NCBI RefSeq assembly: GCF_964213995.1
Contig: NW_027590123.1
Span: 992,001 to 1,056,000, forward strand
DNA: 64,000 nucleotides
Direction of reading: 5' to 3'
Source: Mustelus asterias
Lineage: Eukaryota
Every line of letters begins with the position of its first letter. The first letter of the stretch is position 1. Below the pieces are notes generated by a model that saw only the letters and a list, made by a program, of their open reading frames with translations, was not told where the DNA came from and made no database searches. A program made the position numbers and the translations under genes. Of this stretch, positions 24,409 to 62,096 are shown piece by piece.

Positions 24409-24481
24409 TGTTTCTGCTTCGTTTGGAACCAGGATCCTTCCGCGTGTCAGACGAACATAATAACCACTACACTACAGAAAC
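24409..24481 (-). pseudogene. tRNA-Val pseudogene (best-preserved copy in the array)
   Basis: Reverse complement GTTTCTGTAGTGTAGTGGTTATTATGTTCGTCTGACACGCGGAAGGATCCTGGTTCCAAACGAAGCAGAAACA resembles vertebrate tRNA-Val; T-stem is broken. Confidence 0.8.
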
Positions 24482-27918: not shown

Positions 27919-28517
27919 ATAACTGATCAAAAGGAATCGAGTCACCGGGGAATACAGATCACAATTATGAGATTGACCATAGCGAACTACATTTAACCAA
28001 AGTGAACTACATTTAAATAGACGAGATTGAAGAATTATCTGCTATTGACACTTGTGTCTTTTTTATTATGGGCGTGAAATATTCAGGCGCATAAATTCCA
28101 GCCATTTAAATGAAAGTCCAGTAGATCCGCACTAAATCTCGATTTCCTCATCTATCTGAGTGTTTTTTTTTTCCTATTTCTTTGTTTTGAAGAACGATTA
28201 AAGAAAAAGATTCTTCTGGGAAATGTGCGCCATTTCCGATAGTTCACTTGTGTTAGTCCCCTCGAGCACATACTACAATTCGAACAGTTCCAGATGGTGA
28301 ATAGCTGCGTTCATCTGCACCCACAAACTCATTAAATTCTGTTGTTGATTGAACGTGATGCGAATATGTGCACAGTGTCGCAATCGAAATGTTTCTTTCC
28401 TGTCATTTCGTCACAAAGCTATCAACATTCTTATTTTACAGAAAGCATTTGAGGCCGAGGTCAGAGCAAAGATCATATGGCTGCAATATCAAGATTCGGA
28501 TAACGTTCAGCAACGAA

Positions 28518-29289
28518 AGTCTAATACAGATAGGAAATATACAGTAAATGGCAGCACCCTTAAGAGTATTGATAGACAAAGGGATCTGGGTGTACAAGTA
28601 CACAGGTCACTGAAAGTGGCAATGCAGGTGGAGAAGGTAGTCAAGAAGGCATACGGCATGGTTGCCTTCATCGGCCGGGGCATTGAGTTTAAAAATTGGC
28701 AAGTCATGTTGCAGCTTTATAGAACCTTATTTGGGCCGCACTTGGAATATCGTGTTGAATTCTGGTTACCACACAACCAGAAGGATGTGGAGCTTTGGAG
28801 AGGGTACATAAAAGATTTGCCAGGATGTTGCGTGGTATGGAGAGGATTAGCTACGAAGTGAGATTGCAGAAACTTGGTTTGTTCTCACGAGAGCGACGGA
28901 GGTTGAGGGGCGCCCTGATAGAAGTCTACAAGATTATGAGAGGCATGGACAGAGTGGATAGTCAGAAGCTTTTTCCTCGGGTGGAAGAGTCAATTACTGG
29001 GGGACATAGGTTTACAATGCGAGGGGCAAGGTTTAAAGGAGATGTACAAGGCAGACTTTTTAAACAGGGATTAGTGGGTGCCTGGGACTTGTTGCCAGGG
29101 GAGGTAGTGCAAGCGAATACGGTAGTGACTTTTAAGGGACGCCTTGACAAGTACATGAATAGGAATGGGAATAGAGGGATATGGTCCCCGGAAAGGTCGG
29201 GGGTTTTGGTTAATTCGGGCAGCATGGTCGGTACAGACATGGAGGGCCGAAGGGCCTGTTCCTGTGCTGTAATGTTCTTTGTTCTTTGT
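28518..29289 (+). mobile_element. CR1 LINE 3' fragment inserted in a Val-array unit
   Basis: Frameshifted ORF2 C-terminus and TTCTTTGTTCTTTGT tail. The flanks CAACGAA|ACTGAAATC rejoin the uninterrupted unit seen at ~30520. Confidence 0.92.
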
Positions 29290-32200
29290 ACTGAAATCAT
29301 ACAGATTTTCCTCAATCTAAATTAGGAAGCTCAATAAATGTTTCTGCCAGGTTTTGAACCTGGAACCTTTCGCCTCTCTGCAATGTTCAACTGCGCTGTA
29401 TTGCTGCAGTTTCAAATGATTAGACTGAGAGCCCATGTCACTTGTTTCAGGAAGATAACCGTTACTTTCAATGTGATTGCTCAACTTATCTTGAACTTCA
29501 AAATTTGAAAGCGATCGCCTGGCAAATATCTAAGGGATCAATGATTTCTGCTCATTCACTAATGCATCATATTCATCTTCCTTCGAATAATCTCAACCAC
29601 TTGTGCTCATTAATAAAAGCAAATTACTGGGGATGATGGATTCTGAAAGCAGAGGAGAAAATGCTGGAAAATCTCACATGGTCTGGCAGCATATGTAAGG
29701 AGAGAAAGGAGCTGACGTTTCGAGTCCAGATGACACTTTGTCAAAGCTCATTGTACAATTGTACTCAGTATTTGTTTCAATATTTAGTGTCAATGCATGA
29801 TTTAACACATATGTCTGAATATCTCTGAACTTGAATATCACTGAATTGCAAACGTAACTGGCCAACGAAAAGAGTCGAGTCACCGGGTAATACAGATCCC
29901 ATGGTGTTTGTTTGAGATTGGCCATCATCAGCTTTTAAACAAAGTCAACTATAATTAAATGGAAGAGATTGAAGAATTATCTGTTAGGTATACTTGAGTC
30001 TTTTTTATTATAAGTGTGAAACACTCAGGCGCATAAATTCCAGCCATCTATAGGAAAGATTAGTTGATCCGCACTGAGTCTCCATTTCCTCATCTGTCTG
30101 AGTGTTTTTTTTCCGATTTCCATGTGATAAAGCAAGATTTTTAAAAAAAGATTCTTCTGGGAAATTTGCACCATTTCCCCTAGTTCCCCTAGTTCCCCTA
30201 GACTTCTATCAGGTCGCCCCTCAACCTCCGTCGTTCTAGTTCACTTAGAGTATTACTTGTGTCTGTCTTTTTGAGCACACACTCCCATTAGACATGTTTC
30301 AGATGGTGATTCGCTATTTTAGTTTGCACCTATGAACCCATTAAATTCTGTTGTCCACTGAACAAGATGATACTATGTGCAGGTTGTCAAAGTAGAGACG
30401 TTTCTTTCCTGCCATTGCGTCAAAAAAAATCAGCATTTCTTATTCGCAGAAAGCATTTGAGGTTGAGGTCAGAGGAAAGATAATATTGCTTTAATAACGA
30501 GATTCGGATAATGTTCAGCAACGAACTGAAATCATACAGGATTTCCCTCATCTTACATGAGCAAGCTTAACGAATGCTGTTTCCCCGTTTCGGACCGGGG
30601 ACTTTTCGTGTTTTAGGAGAACGGGATAACCACTCCACTGCAGCTAGCATTGGGGCCTCAATGGCCCTGACTGCAATGTTTAACTCCACTTTGTTGCTGC
30701 AGGTTTGAATGGTATGATTGAGGGCCCATGTCACTTAATACAAGAGCACAGCCCTTACTTTCAACCTGATATCTCAACTTATCTTGTTCTTCAAAATTAA
30801 AAATAGTTCGTCCGGCAAATATCTAAGGAAGCACTGATTTCTGCTCAATTATTAATGCGTTATTCTTAGCTTCCTGCGAATAATTTCAACCAATTGTACT
30901 CAGTATCTGTTTCATAGAATCATAGATTCAGTGCAGAAACGGCCAATCGGCCCAACGAATCAGCAGCGACGCCAGAGTATCATAACCAGGCCATTTCCCC
31001 TGCTGTCCCCACAACGCTACTCTTTTCCCATGGCTAATCAATCTAACCGAGGGGCAATTTAGCATGCCCAATCCACCTTGGATCATCATTCAATTTTTAA
31101 TATCAATACAGTTATTTAATATATACGTCCAAATTCTGAATTTAATATCTCTGGAACAATATCTCTGGAATATGCAATTGGTCTGACTGCATTGTTCAAC
31201 TCCGCTCTATTGCTGCAGGTTCGAATGGTTAGGCTGAGAGGCCATGTACCTCAGTGCAAGAAGGCAACCGTTACTTTCAACGTGATGTCTCAACTTGTCT
31301 CGAATTTCAAAATTTAAAAGCATTCATCGGACAAATGTCTAAGGGAACAATGATTTCTGCTCAATCGTGAATGCGTCATTCTCATATACCATCGATTAAC
31401 TTCAACCAGTTATATCCAGTATTTGTTCGGTAATCAACATTTACTATCAATCCAGTTATTTAACACATTGCGAATTGAATATGTCTGAAATATACAACAT
31501 TGAATTGCAAACATTACTGACCAACAAAATAAATCGAGTCACGGGTAATACACATCGAATGGTGCTTTTTTAAGTAAGTTTGACCATGATCAGCTTTTAA
31601 ACCAAATCAAATATATTTAAAGGGAAGAGATTCAAGAATGATCTGTCAGTTATACTTGATCCCTCTTTATTCTGTGTGAGAAACATTCTGGCGCCTAAAT
31701 CTCGTTCATCTATAGGAGATCCAGAAGGTCCGCTTTGTTTCTTGATTTCCTCTTCTGTCTGAGAGGTTTTCCCTATTTCGTTAGTATGAAGAAAAATTTT
31801 AAAAAGATGCTTCGGGGAAATGTTCTCCATTTTCTCTACTTCAGTTACATTATCACTTGTATCTGTATTTTTGAGCGCCCAATACTATTAGACATGTTTC
31901 AGTTGATGATGAAGTATGTTAGTCTGCATCTATAAACCTATTAAATTCTGGCGTGGACTGAAAATATTGCTAATATGTGCACGGTTTTAAAATAGGAACA
32001 TTTCCTCTCATTGCGTCATGAAAATACAAGGTTTCTGATTTTGCTGAAAGCTTTTGAGGCAGAGGTGAGCGCAAATATAACATGGCTGTAACATCGAGTT
32101 TCGGATAATGTTCAGCTACAATCTGAAATTATACAGACTTCCCTCAACCTTAATGAACAAATTTCATTAATGCTTCTGCTCGATTTCGAACGTGGGCCCT

Positions 32201-33454
32201 TGCGTGCGTGAAGCAAATGCAACCAGCACGACACCACAGAAACTGTTGGCTGCTCCGTAGCCCAATGGGGCTGAGTTGATATGTTGCAATATTCGTTGGG
32301 AATGCTGGAGACACATTAATCTAAGAATGATTGAAAATGGTTAACAATGTCACAGATCGATGAGAGGCTCATCAATCCATCAGATATTTGCGAATTATTT
32401 TATGAGGAGCTAAATAATTAAGATGTCGTTGCGGGATTGATGGGCCGATGGGCCTGTTCCTGTCCTGAACTGTTCTTTGTTCCAATTTCAATTTCCTCCT
32501 CTCATTCCATGAAGTTGATGTTTCTCCCTTTTAAGTCATTGAAAAATCCCAATTTGAAGAAGGAGTTTCTGCGGAATCCATGGACAATTTGCTATAACAA
32601 CCTTTCCCTTACCCAATGGCAGCAAGTATTGGATTTAGCTTCCTGATATAGTTTTCAACGTAAACATATATTTATTTTTGCAATTGATTTTATATCGATT
32701 TTACAAAACGAATTTAAATCTGATGAAGCATCTCCTCATTATTTCTGAATTATACCTAATATAACTACATTTACTCCACAACCTTCCACAGAGTGTGGAA
32801 TATAACAGACGAGAATAAATCACCTACACCTGAAGCAGTCTTCTTGTGCTGTCCTCCTGTGTCCTGAACATCCAATCCGAAAACCTCGAGAATGGATGGA
32901 GAATCTGTCTTATTCACACGGACTTCACATAGGCCAACACAGTGGCACAGTGGTTAGCACTGCTGTTTCACAACGCTAGGGACCCGGGTTCAATTGAAAT
33001 TCCTCCTTAGTGTACACGAATAGGCGGCGGAATGTGGCGACGAGAGGATTTTCACAGTAACTTGAATTATTAATTGCAGTATTAATGTAAGCCTGGTTGT
33101 GACACGAGTAAATATGTTTTGCACACGGACACATCCAGAATATGTTTGGCGTAAAAATAAATATATCCATTATTGCTTATTCTGCAAAAGGGTCCACGTC
33201 GATTTGTCAATCAATGATCACCATTGATGAGAAATAGATTTCTGGCTGCTCCTGTTGTTAAAATGTTGTGTTCCATCGTAATGAGTATCTAACACGATAT
33301 TGCCGCACTTACACCACACCAGGGAATTCCAGTTCAGGAAGTTTACTCCGGAGCTAGCACGCTTTTTACGTTGCCAATGAGTTCATGTCTCTTTTGTGTG
33401 TCAATGGCTGTGCCAATCTGCTTGGTTATCTTTCTTAGTGATTGTCCGTGTGTC

Positions 33455-34143: not shown

Positions 34144-34918
34144 ACTCTATGACTATGTTTGAGTCGATCGGTTTGGGAATCTATCACTTAGTTTACTGGT
34201 CTCTGTGTTGATTCTGTGCAGTATCCGAGACTTCCAGTGAACACGGAGGTGGAAGTATTCATGCATTATCATGGTTAGCAACGCAAACTAATAGGTGTCA
34301 GAAATCTGCAGAATAATTCTGGATTTATAACGAGGGACGTTAGAATTGATGTCACTGTCTGGGCATATATCTATATGGTTATATATCCTTATTCGTGTTG
34401 GTCTTTCCACGTGACCGTGTGTCTATCTGTTCTCCGCATGTCTGCTGGGTTTCCTCGGGTGCTGTGGTTTCCTCCAACAGACCAAAGATGTGCGGATTAG
34501 GTGGATTGGCCATGATAAATTGACCCCTAGTGTCAGGGAGATTATGTGTGCGGTTACGGGAATAGGGCCTCGGTGGAATTGTGGTCGGTACAGATTCGCT
34601 GGGCCGAATGGCCTCCTTCTGTACTGTAGGGGTTCTATGATTCAATGTTCTCTATAAGTGTCAGTCTTTTCAGGTTGCCGCGTGTGTCCCTGTTTCCAAT
34701 ATGCGGCTGTGCTGTCCACGGGAGAGTACTCTCTGATCACTTATGAAAGATCACAATCCCTTTCTAAAGGAAGCGTCTGTTTGAAGATGTAAAGATGGGC
34801 GGAGAGATGGAGTCACTTTGGACCTCATAACATCCCCCTGACTGTTTCAACATCTCCAATTGCAGATCAGATTCAGACAGTGATCAGTCTCTCTGTTTCT
34901 GCTGTTCAGACTCGAACC

Positions 34919-35390
34919 ATGGGGGTGAAACTCTGTCTCACTCTGGTTATTGTCCTGATTACAGGTCTGTCATTTTGAACTTCTGCGTGAAATCTGCCAG
35001 TCACCACATTCATTCCCCATTTCCATCTGGAGGGGATTATTCCATTGTTGTTACTCCTTCTAACCCACTGCGTGTCTGTTATCTATTTTCAGACATGAGT
35101 AACGGTGACTCAGTGTCCCAGTCAGGACCAGGTGTTGAAGCAGCAGAGGGTGAAGATTCAGCAATACCCTGCAGTTACTCGGGACAGAGTTTAACTGTAC
35201 AACATTACTGTTCTGGTATCGCCAGTATACACACCGAGCTCCTCATTGACTGCTCAGAGCCGCGAATGTACGGGTCTCAAGGTTTTTTACATTGCAGCGG
35301 GAATCTCAACCTGAAACAAAGCACTTTTCACTTGCCCATGAAAGATTTGAAGGTGACAGACAACACCGAGAATTACTGTGCACTGAGAGC
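34919..35390 (+). pseudogene. TRAV/TRDV: TCR alpha/delta V segment (leader 34919-34964, V exon 35093-35390) with compensating frameshifts; probably non-functional
   Basis: Leader MGVKLCLTLVIVLIT, GT-AG intron, DSVSQS..C..YCALRA. WYRQ (TGG 35214-35216) lies in a shifted frame. Confidence 0.85.
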
Positions 35391-35429
35391 CACAGTGAAT
35401 GAGGCTCCCGCGGGCCTCATACAAAATCT
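35391..35429 (+). other. 23-RSS
   Basis: CACAGTG-23-ACAAAATCT. Confidence 0.92.
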
Positions 35430-35961
35430 GGCACAGGTCGATAATCAATGATTCATTGTCAGGACAACACATGGGGTTAAAAATCAGCGAAAATTTACTC
35501 ATAGTGAACCTGACAATACAGTCCCGTCTAATTGTTTTCCCTCACTGAGGTTACTGATTGTCACTGTTGGGAAGTTTGACATGTTTTTACTCATATTACT
35601 ATCACATCAAGTCCAATCGCTCCCCGATCCTTTCACACAAACCCACAGATCTCCCAGGTGAACCATGTCATCAGACAGACCACACCTTTCAAAAGTGATC
35701 AAGTTTCAAAGGCAGACTCAGAGTTGTCACATGTTGAAGTTGCTGGTTAAAATTATTGACTGTAACATGTGTACTTTATAAACAAAAACCCCCAGTTGCA
35801 AACAGTCGAAGTAACAATATTGGACGGATATTTTGCTGGAACTTAAAGTCCACAAATGCTGATGCGGTAAGTTATTTAATCAATTTCGGCTTTCACTCGA
35901 GGTGTCAGAACTGCTTTGTAGAAAGTTAAACAATTTTTATTTTGCTAGCTACTAACGTGCA

Positions 35962-36051
35962 GGCTCGTTGGTCTAGGGGTATGATTCTCGCTTAGGGTAC
36001 CTCGCCCCATTAGCATGCGAGAGGTCCCGGGTTCAAATCCCGGACGAGCCC
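35962..36051 (+). tRNA. tRNA-Pro-AGG: tRNA-Pro(AGG) with an 18-nt intron (35998-36015)
   Basis: Exons match canonical vertebrate tRNA-Pro(AGG) as recalled. The insert sits exactly between positions 37 and 38; TTTT terminator at 36054-36057. Confidence 0.93.
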
Positions 36052-36344
36052 CGTTTTGACCGAAATATTGTGTTCGAAAGGAGATATTTTGATTTATTTC
36101 AGGTGCAAACGGCGGGATGGCTTTCTGCTGACTGGCTCCGAAAAAGAGTAATAAAGGCACAGAGTTTTACAGCACGGATAGAGCCCACTCGGACACCCAC
36201 ATGGCAGGCGCGGACATCCATCATGTCTGCGCCTGCCACGTGACAGCTGGGCGGGAAGCGTTAGTTCTGATTCTCGCTCCACAGGTACTTCCAGAAATAC
36301 TGACATAACCCAGTATTTTCTGTTTTTATTTCAGATTTTGAAAG

Positions 36345-36990
36345 ACCGCAGTGTGCTGCATTATATTAGACTTTGGGCTGACAAGTGGCAAGTAACATTC
36401 GCGCCACACAAATGCCAGACAATGTCCATCACCAATAAGAGAAAATCTAACCACCACCTCTTGACAGTCAATAGTTTTTCCATCACTGAATCCCCCAAGG
36501 TTAACATCCATACGGTTACCATTGACCAGATACTCAATTGGACTCGTCACATAAACACAATGGCTACAAGAGCAGGTCAGAGGCCAGGAATACTGCGGCG
36601 AATAACTCACCTCCTGACTCCCCAGAGTCTGTCCACCATCTACAAGGCACAGGTCAGGAGCGTGATGGAATATTCCCACCTCGCCTGGATGGGTGCAGCT
36701 CCAACAACACACAAGAAGATTGACATTATCCAGGACAAAGCAGCCCGCTTGACTGGCACCACATCCACAAGCATTCAATCCCACCACAGCCGATGCTCAG
36801 TAGCAGCGATGTGCATCTAAAAGACACACAGTAGAAATTCACCAAAGATCCTTAGACAGCACCTTCGAAATCCATGACCACTTCCATCCAGAAGGAAAAG
36901 GGTAGTAGACACATGGGAACATCACCACCTGCAAGTTCTCCTCCAAGTCACTCACCATCCTGACTTGGAATTATATTGCCATTCCTTCGC
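36345..36990 (+). mobile_element. LINE (CR1/L2 group, different family) RT C-terminal fragment
   Basis: WADKWQVTFAPHKCQ..IYKAQVRSVMEYS. Confidence 0.8.
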
Positions 36991-37084
36991 ATGGCCTCAT
37001 TCTGTGGTGTACTCATTTTCTGATTTAGTGCGTACTTCACCCTGAGGCCGTGATCCGCAAAGTATTTTCTCATTTCTCATTTCT

Positions 37085-37838
37085 GTCATCTCTCCCTCAA
37101 TGTCAATAAAACGGAGATTGTCATTGACTTCAGAAAGCGTAGAGGAGAACATGCCCCTGTCTCCATCAAAGGGAACGAAGTGGAATGGGTCGAGAGCTTC
37201 AGGTTTTTAGGTCTCCAGAGCACCAACAACCTGTCCTGGCCTCCCATGCCGACACTATAGTGAAGAAAGCCCATCAACGCCTCTACTTTCTTAGAAGACT
37301 TAGGAAATTTGGCATGTCAGCAACGACTGTCAGCAAGGTTTGCAGGTGCACCATAGAAAACATTATTTCTAGTTGTATCACAGCTTGGTATGGCTCCTGC
37401 TCTGCCCAAGACCGCAATAAACTACAAAGAGTCGTGAATGTAGCCCAATCCATCACTCAAACCAGCCTCCCATCCAGTGATTCTGTCTACGCTTCCTGCT
37501 GCCTCGGCAAAGCAGCCAGCATAGTTAAGGACCCCACGCACCCCGGACATTCTCTCTTCCATCTTCCTCCTTCGAGAGAAAGATACAGAAGTCTGAGGTC
37601 ACGTGCTAGCCGACTGAAGAACAGCTTCTTCCCTGCAGCCATCATACTTTTGAATGGACATTACCTTGCATTAAGTTGATCTTTCTCTAGACCCTGACAG
37701 TGACTGTAATACCACATTCTGCACTGTCCCGTTTCCTTCTCTATGAACAGTACACGTTGTCTGTATAGCGCGCAAGAAAAAATGCTTTTCACTGTATACT
37801 AATACATGTGACAATAATAAGTAAAACCAAATCAAATC
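37085..37838 (+). mobile_element. Rex1/Babar-clade LINE 3' fragment
   Basis: KKAHQRLYFLRRLRKFG..RLKNSFFP and an (AAATC)n tail. A further minus-strand piece lies at ~54105-54450. Confidence 0.8.
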
Positions 37839-38101
37839 GTTTCATTTCTCCTGACTTCCAGCCTATTCCTGTTGTTAAATTTCCTCCCTCCTGAGTTTCA
37901 GTCGTTTCAAATTCCCACATTTTTCACCTTTTCCTGTTGTAATGAAAGGCCATGGACGGAAAAGATGAGCGTTGTTTCCCTGTCCACAAATTCTGCCTGA
38001 ATTCCTAAGTTTCTGCAGCATCTTCCGCCTTCGCTGCAGTTATCTGATCGGTTTTGACTGACCAAGAGAGCATCTTTTCTTTCAATCAGTGGCTGCTTAT
38101 A

Positions 38102-50201: not shown

Positions 50202-51765
50202 CTTCTGATTATTCCTGGTTTGAACTTTGTGTCCACAGAGCGAATTGAATCAAATCCACCCAAACACTCGGGCGGTTGCACATTTCCGTTCATTCACCAA
50301 AGCATCACGGAACCTGCAGTCAGAAATGGAACAGAGACGGAGCCAGGTTGTGTTTTCAGTATGTTGTCTCTCCTTCGGCCTCTGTCACGCTGGGTGCGTG
50401 TATGTGTCTGGGTTTCTCTGTGTGCGTCAATGTGCTTTAGCTCCCCCTTGGAAATGAACAGCTTTTTACCGTCACAAAATTATCCACAATAGTTCAAAAG
50501 TTTAATCATGAAATGTTTCAGAGAAAAGATCAGAGTGAAAGATGTAAGAGGAGTTTGTAATGTTTGGAAGGAGGTGCAGCAAATAAATAGAAGATGGGAA
50601 TGATGTTACTGCTGACTGAGAGGAATGCAATGTAACGGTGGGGATTTTATTGATCGGTTAACTGTAAACGTTGGATTCAGAACAAGCTGAGGCACCAGAT
50701 GGAAACAGCGTTTGGCTTCACGTATGTTAAGAAAGGGTGCAAGCATCGCTACAGCAGGAGGACGGTTAGCTTAGTCGCAGCATATCAGATGTAATTTCAG
50801 AATCGTTGGTTGCAGCCCCACGTTAGACTCCATCGTGTTTAATCTTTGCTGCTTTCCTGGGTGACTCCAGCTCTCCATCCCTCCGGCAGCGTCACCAATC
50901 AAACTGAACCTTTCTCCATCCCGCTTTGTTGATCTCAGTGAAGGAATGAAAATTGCAATCAATAAAGGTGAAAGAGTTTAATGTTCATTCGGTGAGAAGT
51001 TTTCTTCTTCGCCTGGGAATTTGTATCCAGAAATGCGTGATATTTTTGTCAGTATAAACGGGTCAATCTGGCCCATTAGCACCCAGACGTTACGTTGTAT
51101 CACGATCTCTATCGGCAGAACCTTACAATCTATCACTGTCCTTCACTATCTGTGTTTGTCCTTTACCTGTTGCACATGTGACATTTCCAGCTCGCAAGCC
51201 AACTACAAATCTCACTCCACTGATTCTGACAGAGCTGCTTTCGATCAGGAAGTACTTCAAGTTTTTTTAAAATCAAAACCATTAAATCTTAGTACATCGA
51301 AGCCAGTCTGCGACCCTGAAAACGCCGACCCCTCACCACTCGATGACCAGGATCCCACCTGCCCGATTCTCCCAGATACTGATTACAGCAATGTGCACAG
51401 TGCCAATTATCCACAGTCACACTCTGCTTCCTGTCTGTTAAGGTTAGAAATTGTTCACATTTTCACACTGGCTTCCAATGCGACGAAAATAGAGGGTGAA
51501 CAGCTGATGCTGTTCAGTAGATTTACCACAATAGAGTTTCTAACAGGTCGATGCTAACATTGCTGTTTGAATGTGGTGAGCTGCAGTGAAATTCAATGCA
51601 GTTGAAGGTAGAGTACTCATTATTTTCGGAGGAAACAGCAGGGCAATGTCAGTATGAATTGCTGTGGGTAATTGACGGGATTGTGGAATGGGAATGATTT
51701 TTCTCCCTGCTGTTCAGACTGGCACAGGTATTGCATGATTATTTGCAGGCGGATATTGTGCGTTG

Positions 51766-51837
51766 GGTTCCGTGGTGTAATGGTGAGCACTCTGGACTCT
51801 GAATCCAGCGATCTGAGTTCAAATCTCGGCGGAACCT
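51766..51837 (+). tRNA. tRNA-Gln-CTG: tRNA-Gln(CTG), structurally intact
   Basis: Canonical sequence with a compensatory G7:C66 pair and one G-U pair in the T stem. Confidence 0.88.
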
Positions 51838-52087
51838 TGGTCAACGCTGATGGTTGATTTGCCGAAGGGCGTTTCGTTCAATTTTTTCACAACGTACGAA
51901 TCGAGAGGGCAATTTGTCAGCCAGTTCAACTGCTATTACAATGCGCATTGCTGAGCCTCTGGCGCCAGATGCCTGGCGCATCAATGTCTTTTCATATTTT
52001 ATCTTCTCTTTAATTCCTCTGTTGAAAGAAAGGAGCAGCTGGTGCCACACAGCAACAGCCCTTCGAATGGAGTCCAGCAATTATTGA

Positions 52088-52091
<4 letters not shown>

Positions 52092-52128
<37 letters not shown>

Positions 52129-52156
52129 CGCGTGCGCGTGAGAGAGAGAGAGAGAG
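52092..52156 (+). repeat. Compound (GT)n(GC)n(GA)n microsatellite
   Basis: Visible. Confidence 0.95.
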
Positions 52157-55100
52157 CGAGTGTAGGTACGTGTGTGTGTTTTGGGAGACAAGTCTAGTGT
52201 CTTCGGTCACTGTGCTGTCGATTCCATGGTGTAACGGATCGCACTCTGGCCTCTCGCTTCCGAACTCTTTAAATTGGGACAGATGAGTGAGTGAATGACA
52301 CGACACATGAAGATGGACCCCCCCCCCCCCCGCCTTTCTACAGTGGCTTCCCTGCCTCTCAGCGCATTGTATTCCTGAGCAATCATCCTCTGGGGCTGAT
52401 GCAATGACGCCAGGAGAGGCATTCGCTGCAGCGTCTGCAATTTGAATGCCGTGGAATTTGCTGAGATTTCGTCAGTGTTGAGATTTACACTTTCTGACAA
52501 TTTAAAATAAAATGCCCTTCTGCAAACCCGTCATCGGCTTTAGCAAAACAAATCAAGGTTTTGCCACGATACGAACTCGAATTGCTGGATTCAGATTCCA
52601 GAGCGCTCACCGGTACACCACAGATCTCAGAACGCGCCCATTGCCGGCAAATGATCACTCGAACAATTTGATCTCTTTCATTCGATGTGACAGCAACAGC
52701 AAGTATGATAACAATGTGTCGTTATAGGCCACCGTTGATATCAGAAAAGCTCAGAAGGCAGAGTGCCCCAAATCTCAAATTATTTCATCGCAAGACCTAT
52801 CGGGAGATATCTCCAGAAATAGCCATGTTTCGCAGGTCATTTGCAAGTCATTGCGGTGCTCTGTGTTCCGTGGTGTAATGGTGAGCTCGCTGAACTTTCA
52901 ATGCTGCGATCTGAGTTCAAATCTCGGTGGAGCCTTGCTCTCCTTTACCAATGCTGATAATTGATTTTCTCCATGACATTTATTCTCCATTTGTCACCAT
53001 GTACGAATCGAGAGGGCACTTTGTCAATACACATTGCTGAGACTCTGGCGCCAGATGCTTGTAGCATCAGTGTTTTTCTTTTATCATCTTTCGCTACTCT
53101 TTGACGTTCTGTCGAATCAGAGGAGCAGTTGGTGTCAAACAAAAACCCGACTGGAGCCTGGCAATTATTGAGCAAGAGTGTGTTTGTGTGAGATTTGGGT
53201 GAAAGATCTCCCGCATTAAAACAGCGCCCAGTTGGTTCCATGGTGTAACGGTGAGCACTCTGGACTTTGAATCCAGCATTCCGAGCTCGAATCTCAATGA
53301 AACCACTATTCTCAACGCCCGAACTCCTGCTTAACTTGGGGCAGATGACTCAGTGAATTATATCGGTAGAATAACTGTGGTTAGCACTACTGCCTCCCAG
53401 TAACAGGGCCCGTGTTCAGTTCTGGCTTCGGGTGACTGTGTGCAGTTTGCACATTCTCCCCGTGTCTGTATGTGCGGAAGAAAACCGAGCACACGTCCTA
53501 TAAGACAAAAATGTGCGGATTAGGTTGATTGGTCATGTTACGTTACCCTTAGAGTCAGGGGATTAACTGGGTAAATATGCGGGATTACAGGGATGGAGAC
53601 TGGGTGCGTTTGCTGCTGGTGCCGGATGAGCCAAATTGCTTCCTTCTACACGATAAGGGTTCTATGATTCTGCCTCCGAACTCTTCATTTTCTTGAGCAA
53701 TCGTCCTCTGTGACTGAAGCCATGAAGCTAGGAAATCATTTCCTGCATCGTCTGCAATGTGGATGCGGTGGAATTTGCTGAAATTTCTTCAGAGTTTAAA
53801 ATTTCACTTTCTGCCAATTTTAAATAAAATACCCTTCAGCAAACCAATCATCGCCTTTAGCAAAGAAAAGCAAGGCTCCACCGAGATCTGATTTCAGATT
53901 ACTGGATTCAGAGTTCAGAATGCTCACCGTTACACCACACAACCGGGAACATGGGCGCCACTTGCAAATCGTCACCAACCGCATTTGGTTCTGTGGTGAA
54001 ACTGTGGGCACTCTAGAGTCTGAATCCAGAGATCTGAGTTCGAATCTCCTTGGAACATTGTTTTTCTTTGCCAATTCTGATGATTGATTTGCTAGATGAT
54101 ATTTGATTTGATTTTGATTTAATTTATTATTGTCACGTGTATTAGTATACAGTGAAAAGTATTGTTTCTTGCGCATTATACAGACAAAGCATAACGTTCA
54201 TAGGGAAAGAAATGAGAGAGTGCAGAATGTAATGTCACAGTCATAGCTAGGGTGTAGAGAAAGGTCAACTTAATAGAAGGTAGGTACATTCAAAAGTCTG
54301 ATGGGAGCAGGACAGAAACTCTTCCTGAGTCAGCTGGTACGTGACCTCAGACTTTTGTATCTTTTTTCCCAACGGAAGTAGGTGAAAGAGAGAATGTCCA
54401 GGGTGCGTGGGGTGCTTAATTATGTTGGCTGCTTTGCCGAGGCAACCGAGGTTTAACTTTCTCACAAAGTATGAATCGAGAGGACAATTTGAAAGCCAGT
54501 TCAACTTCAATGACAATGCACATTGCAGAGAAAATGTGTGTGTGTGTTTGTGTGTGTGTGACTAAGAGAAAGATCTGGGAAAATGGCCTGCTGCCTTAAA
54601 CCAGTGGCCTGTCGGTTCTATGGTGAACTGGTTAGCTTTCTGGTTTGTGAATCAAGCAAACTGAGTTCGAATTTCCGTGGAGCCACTATTCTTTTCGTTC
54701 TAAGTCTTGTTTAAATTGGGAGAAAGGACTCAGTAAATGATACCGGTTGGGGAACCCCTGCACTCTGTGGCATTTCCGGCACGGTGGCACAATGCTACCT
54801 CACAGTGTTAGGCACCGGGTTTCAATTCTGGCTTCGGGTGACATTCTGCAGTTTGCACATTCTCCCCGTGTCTGCGTGTGTGGAAGGAAGCTGAGCATCC
54901 GGCGCAGAATCCAAAGGTGTGTGGGTAGGTTGATTGGCCATGCTACTTTGCCCGTAGTGTCAGGGGGACTAAGAGGGTAAGTGTATGGGGATAGGGCCAG
55001 GGTGTGATTGTTATCGGCGCAGGCTCGATGGGCCGAATGGCTTCCTTCTGCACTGCAGGGATTTTATGATTCTGCCTCCGGGCTCTATTCTTTCTTGAAC

Positions 55101-56148
55101 AATCGCCCTCGAGGGCTGAAGCAATAACACCAGGAGAATCATTCGCTGCATCGTCTGCAATGTGATTGCGGTGGAATTTGCTGAAATTTCCTCAGAGTCT
55201 AAAATTCACTTTCTGAGAATTTCAAATAAAATGTCCTTCAGCAAACCAATCACCGGCTTTAGCAAATAGAAGGAACGTTTCACCGAGATCTGAACTCGTA
55301 TTACTGAATTCAGAGTCCAGAGTGCTCACCATCACACCACTTAACCAGGAACAGAGCCGCCAGATGCAAATGGTCACTCAAAGTATGTGACCTCCTTCAT
55401 TCAATGTGGGAGGAACAACAAGTGGATCAATTGCTTTGAGCGACCATTTGAAGCCGACTGATCTGTTGTCGGTTTTCTGGTCTAACTGTGAGCACTCTGG
55501 ATCCAGCGAACCAGGTTTAAGTTTAGTTGGATCCTTGCTCTTCTTTCCCATTGCTGAGGATTAGTTTGTGAAACGACCTTTTATTTAAATTTCTCATGAA
55601 GTAGGAATCTGGAGGACAGTTTGTCAGCCAGTTTAACTTCTCTTACATTGCACATTGCTGAGCCTCTGGGGACAGATGCCTGCAACAACAATGTTTTGTT
55701 TCCATCTTTTCGCGACATACACAATTGTTTCCTTTTCTTCATGTTGAGCTCCTGTTTTCTCTTTTTGGTGTCTGTTACAGTTGTACATATATTGGGCAGC
55801 TCAGAGCACACGTGCTCTGTTCTCAATATGAAAATCAATTGTTATGTTCCCTTCTGTGAACTTTAAAAAAACGTTTCTGTAAAATGTTCTCTGAATTTTT
55901 AAAGTAAATCTTGAATAAAAAATGAATAAATCATCACTTTGCCAAACTCCTTTCCCCATCAGGCAAAATGGATATCCATCCTTGTGTCCAATCTGCGCTT
56001 CAAACCAAATCTCTCAGAGTAAAATATAATTCTCTTCCCCACTGCACGAGGCACGCTTTCCAAGTATAAGGATCTCCCACACCACAACACAGTCCTGTGC
56101 AATCTCTCAGGGAGAAGTGGAACATTGAGGCTCATAATTCGAACAAAT

Positions 56149-56162
56149 GCCACCAGAGGGCG
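56149..56162 (+). promoter_or_regulatory. CTCF-like motif
   Basis: GCCACCAGAGGGCG matches the CTCF core consensus CCASYAGRKGGCR. Confidence 0.55.
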
Positions 56163-57336
56163 TTTCAGCATTACTCGAGTTTCAGCATTGGGATATTGAC
56201 TCGCTCTCAGTGAATATATGCCAGATACATACTTTCATACCTAACATAAATGGACATTAATGATTGCAACCCAGTTCAATGCAACCAAAATTAGCTACTT
56301 GAATAGGCATCTACGGAACTATGGCCAAAAGTTCCTCAGCAACAGCACTGGTCGGCAGCTCAGTCTCGATATTGACATTCTCAATTAAACATTCGCCTTT
56401 AAAGCATTTTCAACATTGAGAGCAGAACGGTAGAATACACTGGAGTGTTTTACCTACAGTGACGTGTGATGCGACAATGACCATGCTCCAATGTCGGCTG
56501 CAGGTTCCAACAGTCAATGCTTTTCCATTTTTTCAAATCTACTTGCCTGAATATCATAGAAACATCGGATCCCTACAGTGCAGAAGGAGGCAATTTGGCC
56601 CATTGAACCTACACCGACTCCCTGACACCAATCCTACTCAGGCCCTATCCCCGGAAGCCCATATATTCAGCCCGCTAATCCCCCTAACCGACACACACAT
56701 CTTGGGACACTAAGGGGCATGTGAGCTCGGCCAATCCACCTAACCTGCATAGCTTTGGAGTTTGGGATGAAACAGCAGCACCGGGAGGAACTTTCTATTA
56801 CTGGAAAAGCTAGATGTGCTACGCATCCTCTTTCACCATATTAATAGTCCCGAGAGACCACAGCAGTTTAAGAACCTGCACATCCCCTCTCCTTCTCAAG
56901 GGTAATTAGGAATGGAGTTGAAATCTAGACTTCCCAGTAACGCTGACATTACTTCATGTATTAATAATAATTAAAGCCCGTGAGAGGAATTTCACTGCAG
57001 TCATGGTTATCACTACGCTGATAGTGGAGCAAAATCCGTGAAAACAAAGTGACAAACTCATTCAAAAATTATTTACTTTCTTTAGTACAATTAAGGTGAA
57101 GGTGTTCCTTCCCCAACTCCGGTGGATAATACGGGAAGCATTTTCTCTGCAAGAATAGTGACTGTAATGCAGCTCGGGGTGATTCTCTTTGCTATCTGCC
57201 GGCCTCACAGCACCAATGGAAAAGCAAGGAAGTGAGGTGAGTACAGCCTGAGACACGGCAGCAGATTATTGAGGGCGGGGTTTAGAAAGGGTGGCTAAAT
57301 ATCCAACCCTCCCCTTTCACAGAGCGGACAGAGACA

Positions 57337-57791
57337 ATGCGGCTGCTCAGCATCTGGGTTGTGTGGGGAATATTTCTGGCAGGTAAATGTGGATGCGTTC
57401 TTCCATTCCCCAAGCTTGATTGGAATCAAATTTCAACCAGCCACCGGTCTATACTTTTCCTGATTAATTTATTATATTCCAGATCTGAGTCATGGAGATT
57501 CTGTCACTCAGCCGCTGCCCTCAGATGTTAAGGCAGAAGGAGCAGCGCTCATATTCACCTGTAACTATGAAACTACACAGAGAAACTATGCATTACACTG
57601 GTACCGCCAACTCCCAGGAAACCATCCCGAGTTTATAGTGTGGAGAAGTACATACAACAGTGAAGATAAAGCAGATTTTGCCAAAAGCCGTTTCTCTATC
57701 GAGCTTCATACATCGACTAAATTCACCAGTTTAACTGTTTCGGATCTGCAGCTGACTGATGTCGCCGTGTATTACTGCGCTTTACAGCTAT
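57337..57791 (+). CDS. TRAV/TRDV: Intact germline TCR alpha/delta V segment (leader 57337-57382, V exon 57483-57791)
   Basis: Spliced product MRLLSIWVVWGIFLADLSHG-DSVTQPLPSDVKAEGAALIFTCNYETTQRNYALHWYRQLPGNHPEFIVWRSTYNSEDKADFAKSRFSIELHTSTKFTSLTVSDLQLTDVAVYYCALQL. Cys23, Trp41 and Cys104 are present; GT-AG intron. Confidence 0.95.
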
Positions 57792-57830
57792 CACAGTGAT
57801 GGAAAGCTGTCTCACCCCTGCACAAAAACT
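57792..57830 (+). other. 23-RSS
   Basis: CACAGTG-23-ACAAAAACT. Confidence 0.96.
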
Positions 57831-59704
57831 GCCTTTGGATTGTTGGTGCGAGCTCTGTTCTGTTGAGCGTTAAGTAGGAGTGCGGTTGTTGCAGTGCAGC
57901 GGCGCTCACAGGCGCTCAGATACACACCGAGAGGAAACCAAATTAACCCCGGATCAAACTGTCACCCAACAGTTAGCAGGAGAGACTGAGAAAATGAAAT
58001 GCAGAACTGCAGTGGAACAGAGAAACATCACATAATCATAACTGAAGCCACCCGTTATAATCCCCGCCCTCAATGATCCGACGTCCTGTGTGAGCTGGAT
58101 GTCAGTGAAAGGAAACACCTCGATCTGTGCTGCAGCCAATGTCCTGGTGGGAGACAGCGTTCTGCTGTGTGGGTTGGTTTGTTAATGATCATCAGAAAAA
58201 CAATAGTTAAAGGAAAAGGGGAAACAAGATTAGCCTCAGGAGACACCCTGAAGCACAAGCAGCTCATTCTCAATTCTCAGTTACTACTTTGTGGAACAAG
58301 TTGGTTGCAGATACGCTGTTTCTGATCCAGTAACACGCACTGATTAAATATAGCTCTGAACAGACCAGTTGTAAGCTGCTGGAGAGTGAGGGAGGAGATG
58401 ATAAATGGTTGTTTCATAGGCGGGCAGGTGGGGAACGGGTAGTAAAGGAGACAAAAAGCACATTAAAATATCATGAGCGCATTTATGACGTTTAACTTCT
58501 GTATAAAGGCGACTTGTAATCAACTAATGTAATAAGTCCACTGGTGGCCATGTGAACATACAAATTCGGAGCTGGAGTAGGCAACCGTGCCACCTCGAGA
58601 CTGCCCGACATTTGATAAGATCCTGGCGGATTGAATTGTGACATCTCTATTTCCATGTCTCCCCTGTACACTCTGACTCCCTGGTCATTCAATAATCGAC
58701 CTCACCCCGTCCTAATTGTTTTCAATGAACTTGCCACCACTGATTTCTGGGGAAGGGGATATCACAGACCAAATAACATCATGGTGACAAAAAGGCATAA
58801 TCTCATCATTTCTGAGGGGACCTTGAGGAGTTTATTAACATTATCTCCCAAGTTTTTGTCCCTGTCACAAAGGAAACATCCTTTTAGTTTGGAATTAACC
58901 TCTGCACATTCTATACTGACCCAGCGATGATAACGGAAAAACCGTATAATTCCAGGAATGAATGATACGGATTTTTTCTGTTTTATTCAAATAGGTTATG
59001 TATTTTTAAAATATCTTTAACACTATGCTATATTACTCTGCACACAACTGGCCTTGACAGGCCGGAAGGAGATTTATTGGAATGGTATTTGTGATCAGGG
59101 AGCTCTCCAAATTTGGTCAGCTCAAACAGTGTAAAACTGATAGCAATTCCGCACCACTCGAGGTCACTGGGGGACGAGACACCAAAACTTTCTCCAAAAC
59201 AAACCATTTTAAAATTAATTTGACCGAGTGTGGGATTCGTTGCTGAGTCCACAATTTATTGTATTCCCTAATTGCTTTTCAAATGGTGGTGATGATGTTG
59301 GGGCTGCCCTCTTCCAGGCCAGCTGATATCAAGAAAACCAAACTCAGCTGTGAGTTCAAACTGCAGTTTCACTATCTTGCGATTAAACTATTACAATATC
59401 ACCATCTGGTGGTGACTTGCACTTACGGCAGGCGCTGGCCTCTGTGAGTCTCGGGGAAGTTCAGGCACTGGATGGCTGGAACTGGCATCCGGTTGATGAA
59501 GTGCCAATATGGAATAAGATTGTTCATTCCCTTTTGCAAACTTTCATTCCTAAATTGGAATGGAAGTTTGCAACATGTGCTCGGGTGGTGCATTCGCCTA
59601 TTTGTCACCAGGCACTGTATAAGAATTTTGTGACCCATTCCCCATGGGAGATATTGTCTGGAGTTGCAGTTCGGGATTATTGTGTACATTAATATTTAAA
59701 ATAA

Positions 59705-59897
59705 ATATTATTGAAGATATATGGCACGGGAGATACGTTTCAAGATCTACCGGACAGATGTTCTTGCTGTTTTGCGCAAAGGAAATAAAACTGTTCTTTT
59801 TGATGTTGCCGGGATGCTTCTCTCTGACACCGCCGTGTATCACTGTGCCACGGAGCCCACACTGCTGCAGAGATAGAGCGGATCCCAGACAATAACC
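59705..59897 (+). pseudogene. 5'-truncated TCR V relic with RSS
   Basis: ..KIYGTGDTFQDLPDR/(frameshift)LAVLRKGNKTVLFDVAGMLLSDTAVYHCATE, then CACACTG (59858)-24-ACAATAACC (59889-59897). Confidence 0.75.
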
Positions 59898-59923
59898 CCA
59901 CACATGGGAGTTCCAGTTAGGTA

Positions 59924-59937
59924 CCACTAGATGGCGG
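59924..59937 (+). promoter_or_regulatory. CTCF-like motif just 3' of an RSS
   Basis: CCACTAGATGGCGG. Confidence 0.5.
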
Positions 59938-60712
59938 TCTTACGCTGGTAAACATAATCAATAATTCACTCTCCATGTAAGTCACAGGGAACTTCCCAAG
60001 AGGTCAGAAAAAAAACACAATCTCAACAAGAGGTGAGCAACATTTGAGGAGTTATATTAGTTTATTTTAACTTGCATTTGTGCTATCGCCGATCTTCTTA
60101 AATCTATTCCATTTAGCTCAGTTGTTGCCCTTGGATGCAGTTTCCGTGTCTCTAATATTGAACAACTCAATCCCCCTCTCCCCTGACAGGTTTCTGAAGT
60201 CTATTACCGCGGCCTGGTCACTGGGTTTATTTGATCCGAGAGATGTACAGCTTCCGAGAAAGTGTATACACAATGAAGAAATTTCACAATGAAGTGACTG
60301 TGATCTTTTAAATAGACATTGAGCACAGAATTTCCCCAATGACCAGTGAACTTCAGAATGTTTCCTCAATGATGCTTGTTACTATAAAGCAACCAAGAAT
60401 TTGCAGCTGCCAATTAACAGAGCAGGGTTTCATCCCCGCAACCCCATCCGGAAAAGTGCACCCGTTCCCCTATCGAGATGCTGAAATCAGCTCGGCTCGA
60501 GGGATTTCCTTTCGATATCAGCCAGCTCATAACTGAGAGATCTCACAGACTCAGAGAGACACAATGATTGAAGTGGCAGGATACTGGACACACTTGGGCT
60601 GATCACAGGTTAATGAGCAATCTTGCATAACTGACAGTCACATTATGGCTGCATCTGCCCGCGATTCTGAGCAACCCGCAGCAGACAGGGTTTTCAACCT
60701 ATAGTTAAAGAC

Positions 60713-60751
60713 AGTTTTTGTGCAGCAGTCAGACTGCTTTCCATCACTGTG
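60713..60751 (-). other. 23-RSS
   Basis: CACAGTG-23-ACAAAAACT. Confidence 0.95.
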
Positions 60752-61209
60752 AGTTTCAGCGAGAGCGCAGTAGTACAAGGCAGTGTCAGTCAGCTGCAGA
60801 CCCGAGATGGTCAAACTGGTGAATTTACTCGATGCCTGAAGTTCTCCAGAGAAGCGGCTTTCAGCAAAATCTGCTACATCTTCACCAAACAATGAGTTCT
60901 TCCCCACTGTAACACAGGGTGTTGCCGGTACCAGTGTAAATTGTAGTTGCTCATTGTAGTATCAAAGGTACAGTTTAAAGTCACCGTTTCTCCTTCTGTC
61001 TGTTATTCTGAGGACAGCGACTGAGTAACAGAATCTCCATGACCCAGATCTGAAAAACATGTTCGAACGAAAACAGATCAGAACAACTGAATACGTAAAA
61101 TTCAGTTCAAAAACAAATTTGTAAAATTAAAGTAGATATGAAATGCGTTTGGTCCATAATTACCTGTCAGGAATGTTCCCCGCACAATCCAGAAGCTGAG
61201 TAGCAGCAT
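60752..61209 (-). pseudogene. TRAV/TRDV: TCR alpha/delta V pseudogene, same family as 57337 (leader 61209-61164, V exon 61049-60752)
   Basis: MLLLSFWIVRGTFLTDLGHG-DSVTQSLSSE* (TAA 61005-61003). Frameshift after WYRQHP, then ADFAESRFS..ALYYCALAET. Confidence 0.92.
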
Positions 61210-61732
61210 CGTTGTTGTCTGCTCTGTAAAAGTGGAGTTGGATATTTGAAGACACCCTTTCCAAACTTCACCCTGTATATTTTGCTGTCGTGTCTCGGAA
61301 TGCTCTCACTGCATTTCCCTGTATCCGCTGTGGTGCTGTGGGGTTGGTAGCTGGTGAGCTGTCTGCCAGTGAATGGATTCACCCCGTGCTAGCTTCAGTC
61401 AGAGTTCCGATCGGACGAAATAGTTTCCTAGTTAGACACGTGGGAAGAGATTTGTAACCGGAAACATGGGGTCACTGATGGGGTTTATTTATTCCGGCTT
61501 CAATTCTTCATCTCCGATTCCAGTAGAATCGATGTCAGTGAGTGTGGGCGGATAAAACCCGAGTCTCAGCTTCTTTGATCAGTTCGACAGATAGGCGCCT
61601 CAGTTGGATACGAAGCAGGCGTTTGACTCCTTGTAAATTCTTCCGAATATTAAACCCAGGTCCTGGTTCTCATCTGAACTCCCTGGACAACTGCTTCAGC
61701 AGAAATTTCATATGATCTGAAAAAAGCTTCGA

Positions 61733-62057
61733 ATTTACAGACTCTCTTTGCTGAGTTTCGCTCTGACATGCACTGGGGTGACTGGAGCAGATGAGGTGAT
61801 GCAGCTTCCTCGGTGGAAATGTTGTGAGTGAAGGGGGATCCGTATCCATGAACTGCACCACGACCACTACATTTAGCAACGCATATTGGTACAGACAGTC
61901 CCCGAATCAGCCACCCCAGTATCTGGTGATGGCCAGAACAGAAACCGATTAACGCGAGAGGATCACTGCCTCAATCGGCGGAGGCAGCAAATTCAGCGCC
62001 CTGACTGTGAGAGACGCCAAAGTTACAGACACTGCCACCTATCTCTGCGCCGTGAGC
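61733..62057 (+). pseudogene. TRAV: TCR alpha-like V pseudogene with the leader fused to V (no intron)
   Basis: (ATT)YRLSLLSFALTCTGVTGA-DEVMQLPRWK/(frameshift)VVSEGGSVSMNCTTTTTFSNAYWYRQSPNQPPQYLVMARTETD*RERIT..DTATYLCAVS; TAA at 61950-61952. Confidence 0.85.
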
Positions 62058-62096
62058 CACAGTGTGACAAACATAGGGTGAGCCCATACAAAAACA
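62058..62096 (+). other. 23-RSS
   Basis: CACAGTG-23-ACAAAAACA. Confidence 0.93.

What the first reader, a model, noticed from the sequence alone, without database searches (positions are those of the whole stretch)
34919..62096. TCR alpha/delta V segments interdigitated with a tRNA gene cluster
Seen: six V segments with RSSs alternate with intact tRNA genes (Pro-AGG ~530 bp 3' of the 35.4 kb RSS, Glu-CTC, Gln-CTG) and more than 20 decayed tRNA copies. Established: tRNA genes bind TFIIIC/Pol III and can act as insulators and chromatin-contact anchors. Human 14q11.2 has a tRNA cluster near, but outside, TRA/TRD. Inference: in this elasmobranch, tRNA genes lie inside the V field. They may organise V accessibility or locus contraction, or may simply have been co-duplicated with V cassettes.
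Basis: partly seen in the sequence, partly recalled or inferred. Interest (0 to 1): 0.7.

Follow-up and report, generated by a model that had tools for sequence, protein, structure and literature searches.

The report
Shark tRNA genes carry dead V-segments
In this shark-type genome, T-cell-receptor gene pieces do sit among tRNA genes, but the piece closest to a tRNA gene is broken in every linked copy examined while the tRNA gene is conserved and likely active, so the pairing is likely a by-product of repeated block copying rather than a device that steers immune gene shuffling.

Summary
There are six V segments with RSSs, only one fully intact, and 21 tRNA-like elements (3 perfect, 2 near-intact, 16 decayed). 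They form blocks rather than a strict alternation.

The window is one copy of a duplicated unit of the elasmobranch antigen-receptor complex. A 95%-identical copy of its right part lies on a 20-Mb scaffold that also holds IgM clusters, 3 of 19 TCR-delta constant exons and, 1.9 Mb further on, the J-alpha/C-alpha array.

The V35-tRNA-Pro(AGG) pair is a natural experiment. All 30 closest copies keep the tRNA 563-773 bp behind the RSS, and all 30 V segments are broken. The tRNA exons are conserved, while the 5' flank and intron change 4-5 times faster than background, the published mark of active tRNA genes. None of 14 further family members, 10 of them open, has the tRNA within about 1 kb. So co-duplication is supported and the V is the likely passenger; a role in V accessibility is not supported.

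The scan found tRNA/V mixing, 19 C-delta copies and intron-bearing Pro tRNAs before on other DNA.

The parts
34919..35429 (+). V35: TCR alpha/delta-type V pseudogene (leader 34919-34964, V exon 35093-35390, 23-RSS 35391-35429); the conserved Trp is out of frame
35430..35961 (+). spacer of the V35-tRNA cassette; likeness to tRNA-free relatives stops at about 35760-35780, the inferred duplication junction; 35942-35961 is the hypervariable inner 5' flank of the tRNA gene
35962..36051 (+). tRNA-Pro(AGG) gene with an 18-nt intron at position 37/38 (35999-36016), followed by TTTT; likely active
38102..38182 (+). decayed tRNA-Pro copy
41560..41902 (-). V41: open V exon with 23-RSS (heptamer CACAGAG); leader-like exon has a stop and no GT donor
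43183..44113 (.). three decayed tRNA-Val copies
44621..44715 (-). tRNA-Ile(TAT) with intron, acceptor stem damaged
45659..45732 (+). tRNA-Asn(GTT), near-intact, T-loop changes
47098..47169 (+). tRNA-Glu(CTC), perfect
49117..50827 (+). four decayed tRNA copies (Val-, Glu-, Ser- and Lys-like)
51766..51837 (+). tRNA-Gln(CTG), perfect
52555..55536 (.). eight decayed tRNA-Gln-derived copies on both strands
57337..57830 (+). V57: the one intact V gene (leader 57337-57382, V exon 57483-57791, 23-RSS 57792-57830); 13 of 14 close copies are open
   Evidence: 53% identical to the V of the TCR-delta-type protein P0101
59735..59897 (+). V59: 3' remnant of a V with a 24-bp-spacer RSS
60713..61209 (-). V60: V pseudogene (stop and frameshift) of the V57 group, with 23-RSS
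61780..62096 (+). V62: V pseudogene (stop and frameshift) with 23-RSS

Best explanation
The window is one copy of a repeatedly duplicated block of an elasmobranch-type antigen-receptor chromosome, in which likely active tRNA genes and mostly broken TCR V segments were copied together, the V segments likely as passengers. The chromosome is a mosaic of IgM clusters, TCR-delta D-J-C mini-clusters, V patches, tRNA patches and zinc-finger genes (shown). A duplication junction likely placed one member of a live V family about 570-610 bp in front of an intron-bearing tRNA-Pro gene (inferred from where likeness to tRNA-free relatives ends). That V carries a stop and frameshifts, and the pair was amplified to at least 30 assembled copies (shown). 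Selection has kept the tRNA exons, and Pol III transcription has likely mutated the flank and intron (pattern shown, cause inferred). Surplus tRNA and V copies decay by birth and death. Intact V segments such as V57 would join a nearby TCR-delta cluster or the distant J-alpha array without needing a neighbouring tRNA gene (inferred).
For: Duplication: window 19-48 kb recurs at 99.4% 101 kb upstream on the same contig; 47-62 kb recurs at 95-97% on C71 at 16.47-16.49 Mb.

Cassette: 30 of the 30 best V35 copies fetched (of 40 listed, 192 candidates) have the Pro gene 563-773 bp behind the heptamer; none has an intact V frame with the Trp.

Selection pattern over 28 copies, parsimony changes per site against non-coding background: tRNA exons 0.50x (p=0.024), V exon 1.2x (p=0.11), inner 5' flank 4.3x (p=1e-8), intron 5.0x (p=4e-10). 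PMC6130373 (passages) reports about 4x inner 5' flank divergence, and intron divergence tracking it, for tRNA genes, and about five times more in active than inactive ones. Glu-CTC and Gln-CTG show weaker flank excess (p=0.04, 0.014).

Control: 0 of 14 further family members has the Pro gene within about 1,040 bp, and 10 of them are open.

Context: IgM cluster on the same contig; TRD mini-cluster followed by V, tRNA and V patches and an IgM cluster on C71; 19 C-delta exons; TRAJ/TRAC.
Against: Two of the 30 copies (L083, L090) have a decayed tRNA, so the tRNA is not always kept; with them the exon signal weakens to 0.64x, p=0.047. The exon signal is modest, and background itself varies from 0.68x to 1.46x between flanks. 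The Gln-CTG gene body is not significantly more conserved than a neighbouring dead copy in the six close copies (1 of 72 sites each). The 30 linked copies descend from one event, so they are one independent case. I picked most of the 14 control copies for long open frames, so their open fraction is not an estimate. Many unplaced contigs are near-identical and may be haplotype duplicates. Intact V segments do lie 6-13 kb from good tRNA genes (V57 at 5.9 kb), within reach of a chromatin effect. No expression or chromatin data were available.
Confidence: 0.75

Rival explanations
1. tRNA genes act as TFIIIC/cohesin anchors or open-chromatin islands that bring far-flung V segments to J-alpha or D-delta, at the scale of patches (5-50 kb) rather than of single neighbours.
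For: V segments are spread over more than 10 Mb of C71, and the 165 kb upstream of the first J-alpha holds no V, so long-range contraction is needed. tRNA patches abut V patches. Insulator activity of tRNA genes is established knowledge (recalled; a barrier role in yeast is mentioned in PMC10275265).
Against: The closest tRNA-V pair has a dead V in 30 of 30 copies. Intact V segments are no nearer to tRNA genes. The V patch next to C-delta at C71 12.30-12.34 Mb holds three open V segments 17-34 kb from any good tRNA gene. tRNA-Pro genes also lie on C85, where four 8-kb samples held no V.
Confidence: 0.12
2. An active Pol III gene within about 1 kb disables or silences a V segment (interference with Pol II germline transcription, or local mutation), so such V segments drop out of use and decay; the dead V is a consequence of the tRNA, not only a passenger.
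For: Linked lineage 30 of 30 broken, unlinked lineage largely open. Three V60-type copies with a Glu-CTC gene at 98.6-100% identity about 1.3 kb away are also broken. 0 of 13 intact and 3 of 16 broken V segments lie within 2 kb of a good tRNA gene.
Against: Only two independent lineages; 0 of 13 against 3 of 16 is not significant (p=0.23) and the three are one family. V60 in this window is broken without a near tRNA. The V exon shows no raised mutation rate (1.2x). The order of junction and V death is unknown.
Confidence: 0.08
3. The interleaving and copy numbers are largely an assembly artefact of unplaced, duplicated contigs.
For: Several contigs carry copies 99-100% identical to the window.
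Against: Copies differ by up to 10% and lie at many places on one 20-Mb scaffold. The C71 regions read have no N. Contigs from two other organism labels show many divergent copies of V35 and its spacer.
Confidence: 0.05

Closest known systems
Elasmobranch antigen-receptor complex, AgRC (Flajnik et al. 2025, PMC12227049; read parts 1-2 of 8, a term search of the main text, and the first 11 places per term in Table S1)
   Same: IgM mini-clusters linked to TCR alpha/delta, with TCR-type V exons between IgH clusters; Table S1 lists such V segments from 8.2 to 17.1 Mb of great white chromosome 27.
   Different: The paper calls TCR alpha/delta a translocon, and neither the main text nor Table S1 contains 'tRNA'. 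Here there are 19 assembled C-delta exons, a J-alpha array with no V or C-delta in the 165 kb upstream, and tRNA patches copied with V segments.
Transcription-associated mutagenesis at tRNA genes (Thornlow et al. 2018, PMC6130373; passages read)
   Same: Conserved mature sequence, about 4x divergent 20-bp 5' flank, divergent intron.
   Different: Seen here among paralogous copies in one genome rather than between species; the inner 3' flank is not raised for the Pro gene (0.72x).
Human intron-containing tRNA families Tyr-GUA, Ile-UAU, Arg-UCU, Leu-CAA (PMC10275265; passages read)
   Same: Short intron between N37 and N38 that pairs with N32-N35 (anticodon-intron pair).
   Different: The intron is in tRNA-Pro of all three anticodons (91 of the first 100 listed of 147 exact matches); Pro is not among the four families named in the passages I read.
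Passenger genes in mammalian TCR loci (olfactory receptors in TRA/TRD, trypsinogens in TRB; recalled, olfactory example also named in earlier scan notes)
   Same: Unrelated multigene families lie inside a recombining locus and are copied or deleted with it.
   Different: Here the bystanders are Pol III genes and zinc-finger genes over megabases, and in the tested cassette the V is the decayed partner.

Membership tests
Functional TCR alpha/delta V gene | split leader, open V exon with both Cys and the Trp, 23-RSS | tested here: met
   V57 only; 1 of 6 in the window
Functional TCR alpha/delta V gene | the same features for V35, V41, V59, V60, V62 | tested here: not met
Functional TCR alpha/delta V gene | found rearranged to D/J and C in transcripts | not testable with these tools
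   no RNA holder listed for the stretch searched; nearest rearranged protein P0101 is 53% identical
Elasmobranch AgRC | IgH mini-clusters linked to TCR alpha/delta V segments | tested here: met
   IgM V-D-J-C at C91 851-867 kb; IgM, TRD and TRA on C71
Elasmobranch AgRC | linkage to PSMB5, UrIg2, IgW and IgNAR | not tested
   not searched
Canonical single TRA/TRD translocon | one TRD D-J-C directly upstream of the J-alpha array, behind a compact V field | tested here: not met
   no V or C-delta in 165 kb upstream of J-alpha; 19 C-delta exons, the nearest on C71 about 6.1 Mb away
Canonical intron-containing eukaryotic tRNA gene | intron between N37 and N38, intact exons, T-run terminator | tested here: met
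Canonical intron-containing eukaryotic tRNA gene | intron pairs with N32-N35, including the anticodon-intron pair | tested here: met
   11 of 11 distinct AGG introns, 4 of 5 TGG, 0 of 1 CGG in this register; the base facing N34 is T in AGG and A/G in 4 of 5 TGG. The unconstrained fold did not give this structure.
Canonical intron-containing eukaryotic tRNA gene | spliced in vivo | not testable with these tools
   no RNA data
tRNA-gene insulator or chromatin anchor | Pol III/TFIIIC occupancy and looping | not testable with these tools
   only indirect sign of transcription
tRNA-gene insulator or chromatin anchor | positional coupling to functional V segments | tested here: not met
   small number of independent families

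The most novel reading that the evidence does not exclude
This shark has no compact TCR-alpha V field. Its V segments are strewn over more than 12 Mb among IgM clusters, multiple TCR-delta mini-clusters and most of the genome's proline tRNA genes, so each V-alpha to J-alpha join would delete or invert megabases that hold active tRNA and zinc-finger genes, giving every T-cell clone its own tRNA gene dosage. Selection for tRNA supply would also help keep and spread the duplicated immune units.
Probability: 0.3. Interest if true: 0.75.

Novelty: new variant of a known kind. Interest (0 to 1): 0.42.

Why it matters
It tests, and weakens, an attractive idea (tRNA genes as organisers of V(D)J recombination) with a natural experiment, and it shows which partner selection keeps. 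It also fixes the layout of a shark TCR alpha/delta chromosome: dispersed V patches, several delta mini-clusters and one isolated J-alpha array on the scaffold. That raises a testable question: how recombination spans megabases of housekeeping tRNA genes (67 of 100 listed Pro genes lie on V-bearing contigs, 23 on C71 upstream of J-alpha), and what T cells lose when it does. As a regulatory mechanism the finding is modest.

Tried and rejected
Tool misses and false calls: default ARAGORN and Rfam missed Pro-AGG. The ARAGORN call at 14823 and many short 'Ala/Val/Glu' hits in zinc-finger regions look SINE-derived and were dropped.

Searches that gave nothing useful: Rfam tRNA over the genome scored only 63 candidates and gave no usable distribution. 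Pfam PF09291 found no C-alpha and a J pattern found nothing; J-alpha was found by sampling. The PDB sequence search returned mostly antibody constructs and did not classify V57.

Weak statistics: dN/dS was uninformative: 0.71 for 8 close V57 copies, 1.62 for the 5' part of 16 V35 copies; the 3' figure was computed in the wrong frame and is discarded. The pooled V-to-tRNA distance test (p=0.007) includes IgH V segments and duplicate copies and missed V41; I use the family-level value (p=0.095; 0.22 or 0.06 with V41 counted as intact or broken). RSS conservation in dead V35 copies is not significant in the 28-copy set (p=0.34; p=0.04 with all 30). The free RNA fold of the anticodon arm was no better than shuffles (z -0.74).

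Sequencing runs: no RNA holder listed. Run X5 covered only 7 of 30 bins.

Literature: searches that returned no paper describing tRNA genes inside a shark or other TCR locus were made; for Pro introns in vertebrates (listings only, apart from the five papers named). The library lacks most subscription papers, and bioRxiv supplements were closed.
Full report
1. Observation. An RSS scan found six V-type segments ending in RSSs at 35391+, 41598-, 57792+, 59858+, 60751- and 62058+. V57 has a split leader, an open exon and a 23-RSS. V41 has an open exon, but its leader-like exon has a stop and no GT donor. The other four are broken. Rfam and ARAGORN found Ile-TAT, Asn-GTT, Glu-CTC, Gln-CTG and decayed copies. 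The Pro-AGG gene at 35962-36051 appears only when introns are allowed, because it carries 18 nt at position 37/38. A library of 99 tRNA sequences taken from this genome finds 21 tRNA-like elements in the finding's range (3 perfect, 2 near-intact, 16 decayed) and 0 in the reversed window. The arrangement is blockwise: two V segments around the Pro gene, a 12-kb tRNA patch, then four V segments with no tRNA between them.

2. Where it lies. The window is G000:C91:992001-1056000, on an unplaced 2.5-Mb contig. V57 relatives (150 scored of 1776 candidates) lie from 6.5 to 17.4 Mb on the 20.4-Mb scaffold C71 and on dozens of small contigs. In 464 kb of C91 around the window I found an IgM V-D-J-C cluster, a second IgM V, zinc-finger arrays, 74 tRNA-like elements in patches, and many direct and inverted duplications, including a 99.4% copy of window 19-48 kb. 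The 47-62 kb block recurs at 95-97% on C71 at 16.47-16.49 Mb, so the interleaving is not confined to an orphan contig. That the animal is an elasmobranch is inferred from the IgM cluster layout and from named database relatives (sawshark, sawfish, elephant shark).

3. The locus. Sampling C71 hit a J array with 12-RSSs at 18.37-18.42 Mb, followed by a C exon at 18.419 Mb that I read as C-alpha from its place behind the J array; a second copy at 74% lies on C546. The 165 kb upstream of the first J holds zinc-finger genes, no V and no C-delta, and has no N. At 12.23-12.27 Mb lies a V, an IgH-type V, a D, three J segments and a C exon 49% identical to the C of P0101, an unnamed protein that I read as TCR-delta from recalled motifs. 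V, tRNA and V patches and an IgM cluster follow. That C exon has 19 open copies, 3 on C71 and none on C91. This confirms earlier scan notes. Flajnik et al. 2025 (PMC12227049; parts 1-2 of 8) describe IgH clusters linked to TCR alpha/delta with V exons between them, and their Table S1 lists V segments over about 9 Mb in the great white shark. 'tRNA' occurs in neither the text nor that table.

4. The cassette test. I fetched the 30 best copies of V35 (40 listed, 192 candidates). All 30 have the intron-bearing Pro gene 563-773 bp behind the heptamer; in 2 it is decayed. None has an intact V: 17 copies with a 303-nt exon share a stop after the WYRQ motif plus a later frameshift, 11 copies like the window's have an open but scrambled frame without the Trp, and 2 have other frameshifts. 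Parsimony changes on a tree of 28 copies, relative to non-coding background, are 0.50x in tRNA exons (p=0.024), 1.2x in the V exon, 4.3x in the 20 bp before the tRNA and 5.0x in the intron (20-bp profile). Thornlow et al. (PMC6130373, passages) report this flank and intron pattern for tRNA genes, strongest in active ones. A protein search gave 150 matches in the wider family. I fetched 14 further members, most chosen for long open frames: 10 are open by my test (9 with a CAC heptamer), and 0 of 14 has the Pro gene within about 1,040 bp. In 13 of them likeness to the window ends by position 35762; one broken copy (L273) runs on to 35943 without a recognisable tRNA. So the family lives where the tRNA is absent and is dead where it is present. 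The caveat is that the linked copies stem from one event.

5. Other V segments. V57's close family is alive (13 of 14 without stops) with no full tRNA gene within 1.5 kb; three V60-type copies with a Glu-CTC gene nearby are broken. Over 964 kb, intact V segments lie farther from good tRNA genes than broken ones (pooled p=0.007). After removing IgH V segments and duplicates this is 9 against 11 families, medians 23 and 8.9 kb, p=0.095. That is inconclusive, but it does not point the way the anchor idea predicts.

6. The tRNA side. An exact pattern found 147 tRNA-Pro genes. Of the first 100 listed, 91 have a 13-18-nt intron, 67 lie on V-bearing contigs (23 on C71), 20 on C85, C102, C103 and C130, and 13 on large chromosomes, including all 9 intronless ones (counted by eye). 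The intron can pair with N32-N35 in 11 of 11 AGG, 4 of 5 TGG and 0 of 1 CGG introns, and the base facing N34 follows the anticodon, as described for spliced introns (PMC10275265, passages; PMC4090602, section 5 and the first part of section 18). The scan reported this class before. Ten of 13 exact Gln-CTG matches lie on unplaced contigs or C71, and the other three on C4, C21 and C75. Four 8-kb samples of C85 held Pro genes and no V.

7. Other species. Laying 34900-35950 on four runs, 290, 245 and 144 contigs of organisms A, D and E covered all 30 bins with many differences, and organism B covered 7. V35 and its spacer are thus multi-copy under at least two further organism labels. No contig spans the stretch and the tRNA gene was not covered, so linkage there is inferred only.

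8. Mechanism. Shown: block duplication, V-tRNA co-duplication, dead V, conserved tRNA exons with hypervariable flank and intron. Inferred: that a duplication junction created the pair, that the tRNA is transcribed and spliced, that selection on tRNA and antibody or TCR-delta units keeps the blocks, and that intact V segments recombine without help from tRNA genes. An anchor role at patch scale cannot be excluded without chromatin data.

9. Novelty. The AgRC is published, and bystander genes in TCR loci are known (recalled). I found no paper on tRNA genes inside it (PMC5931798 passages contain no 'tRNA'), but the library is incomplete. The scan already noted tRNA/V mixing, 19 C-delta copies and Pro introns. 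New here are the within-family contrast and the placement of an isolated J-alpha array 1.9 Mb beyond a copy of this block, in the orientation that would delete the DNA between. Verdict: new variant of a known kind, interest 0.42.

Noticed in passing
G000:C71:18.20-18.42 Mb (L171-L191, L165): The J-alpha array and C-alpha have no V and no C-delta in the 165 kb upstream, only zinc-finger genes; the nearest C-delta on the scaffold is about 6.1 Mb away.
   Followed up: partly
G000:C546:240150-240416: A second C-alpha-like exon, 74% identical to the C71 one.
   Followed up: no
window 35093-35390: In 11 of 30 copies, including this one, small deletions give V35 a stop-free frame from leader to RSS, but with a scrambled middle and no Trp.
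   Followed up: partly
window 35398-35420: The 23-bp RSS spacer of the V35 family is an inverted repeat with 7-bp arms, largely kept in live and dead members.
   Followed up: no
L005 (C71 8.90 Mb), L155 (C71 2.20 Mb): Tandem tRNA arrays: Val-AAC pairs about every 1.46 kb, and Ser-AGA/Ile-AAT units about every 2.9 kb.
   Followed up: no
G000:C71:12426412 and 12444051; L006: tRNA-Asn-type bodies with ATT or GCT anticodons and good ARAGORN scores, apparent anticodon switches.
   Followed up: no
G000:C91:1093880 (38 kb beyond the window end): An open frame that looks like a class A GPCR, probably the GPR139-like family of earlier scan notes; label recalled, not searched.
   Followed up: no
G000:C71:12240942 and 7102645: IgH-type V segments with 23-RSS; the first lies just upstream of the D-J-C-delta cluster, as expected for trans-type TCR-delta V segments.
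   Followed up: partly
window 36.4-37.8 kb and 39.8-41.4 kb; 14823-14915: LINE-like fragments between V35 and V41 (recognised by eye), and a SINE-like element that ARAGORN miscalls as a tRNA.
   Followed up: no
window 23146-32243: Five decayed tRNA-Val copies on the minus strand upstream of the finding; the tRNA patch starts before 34919.
   Followed up: partly
G000:C71:18.420-18.431 Mb: An 11-kb simple-repeat array fills the intron behind C-alpha exon 1.
   Followed up: no
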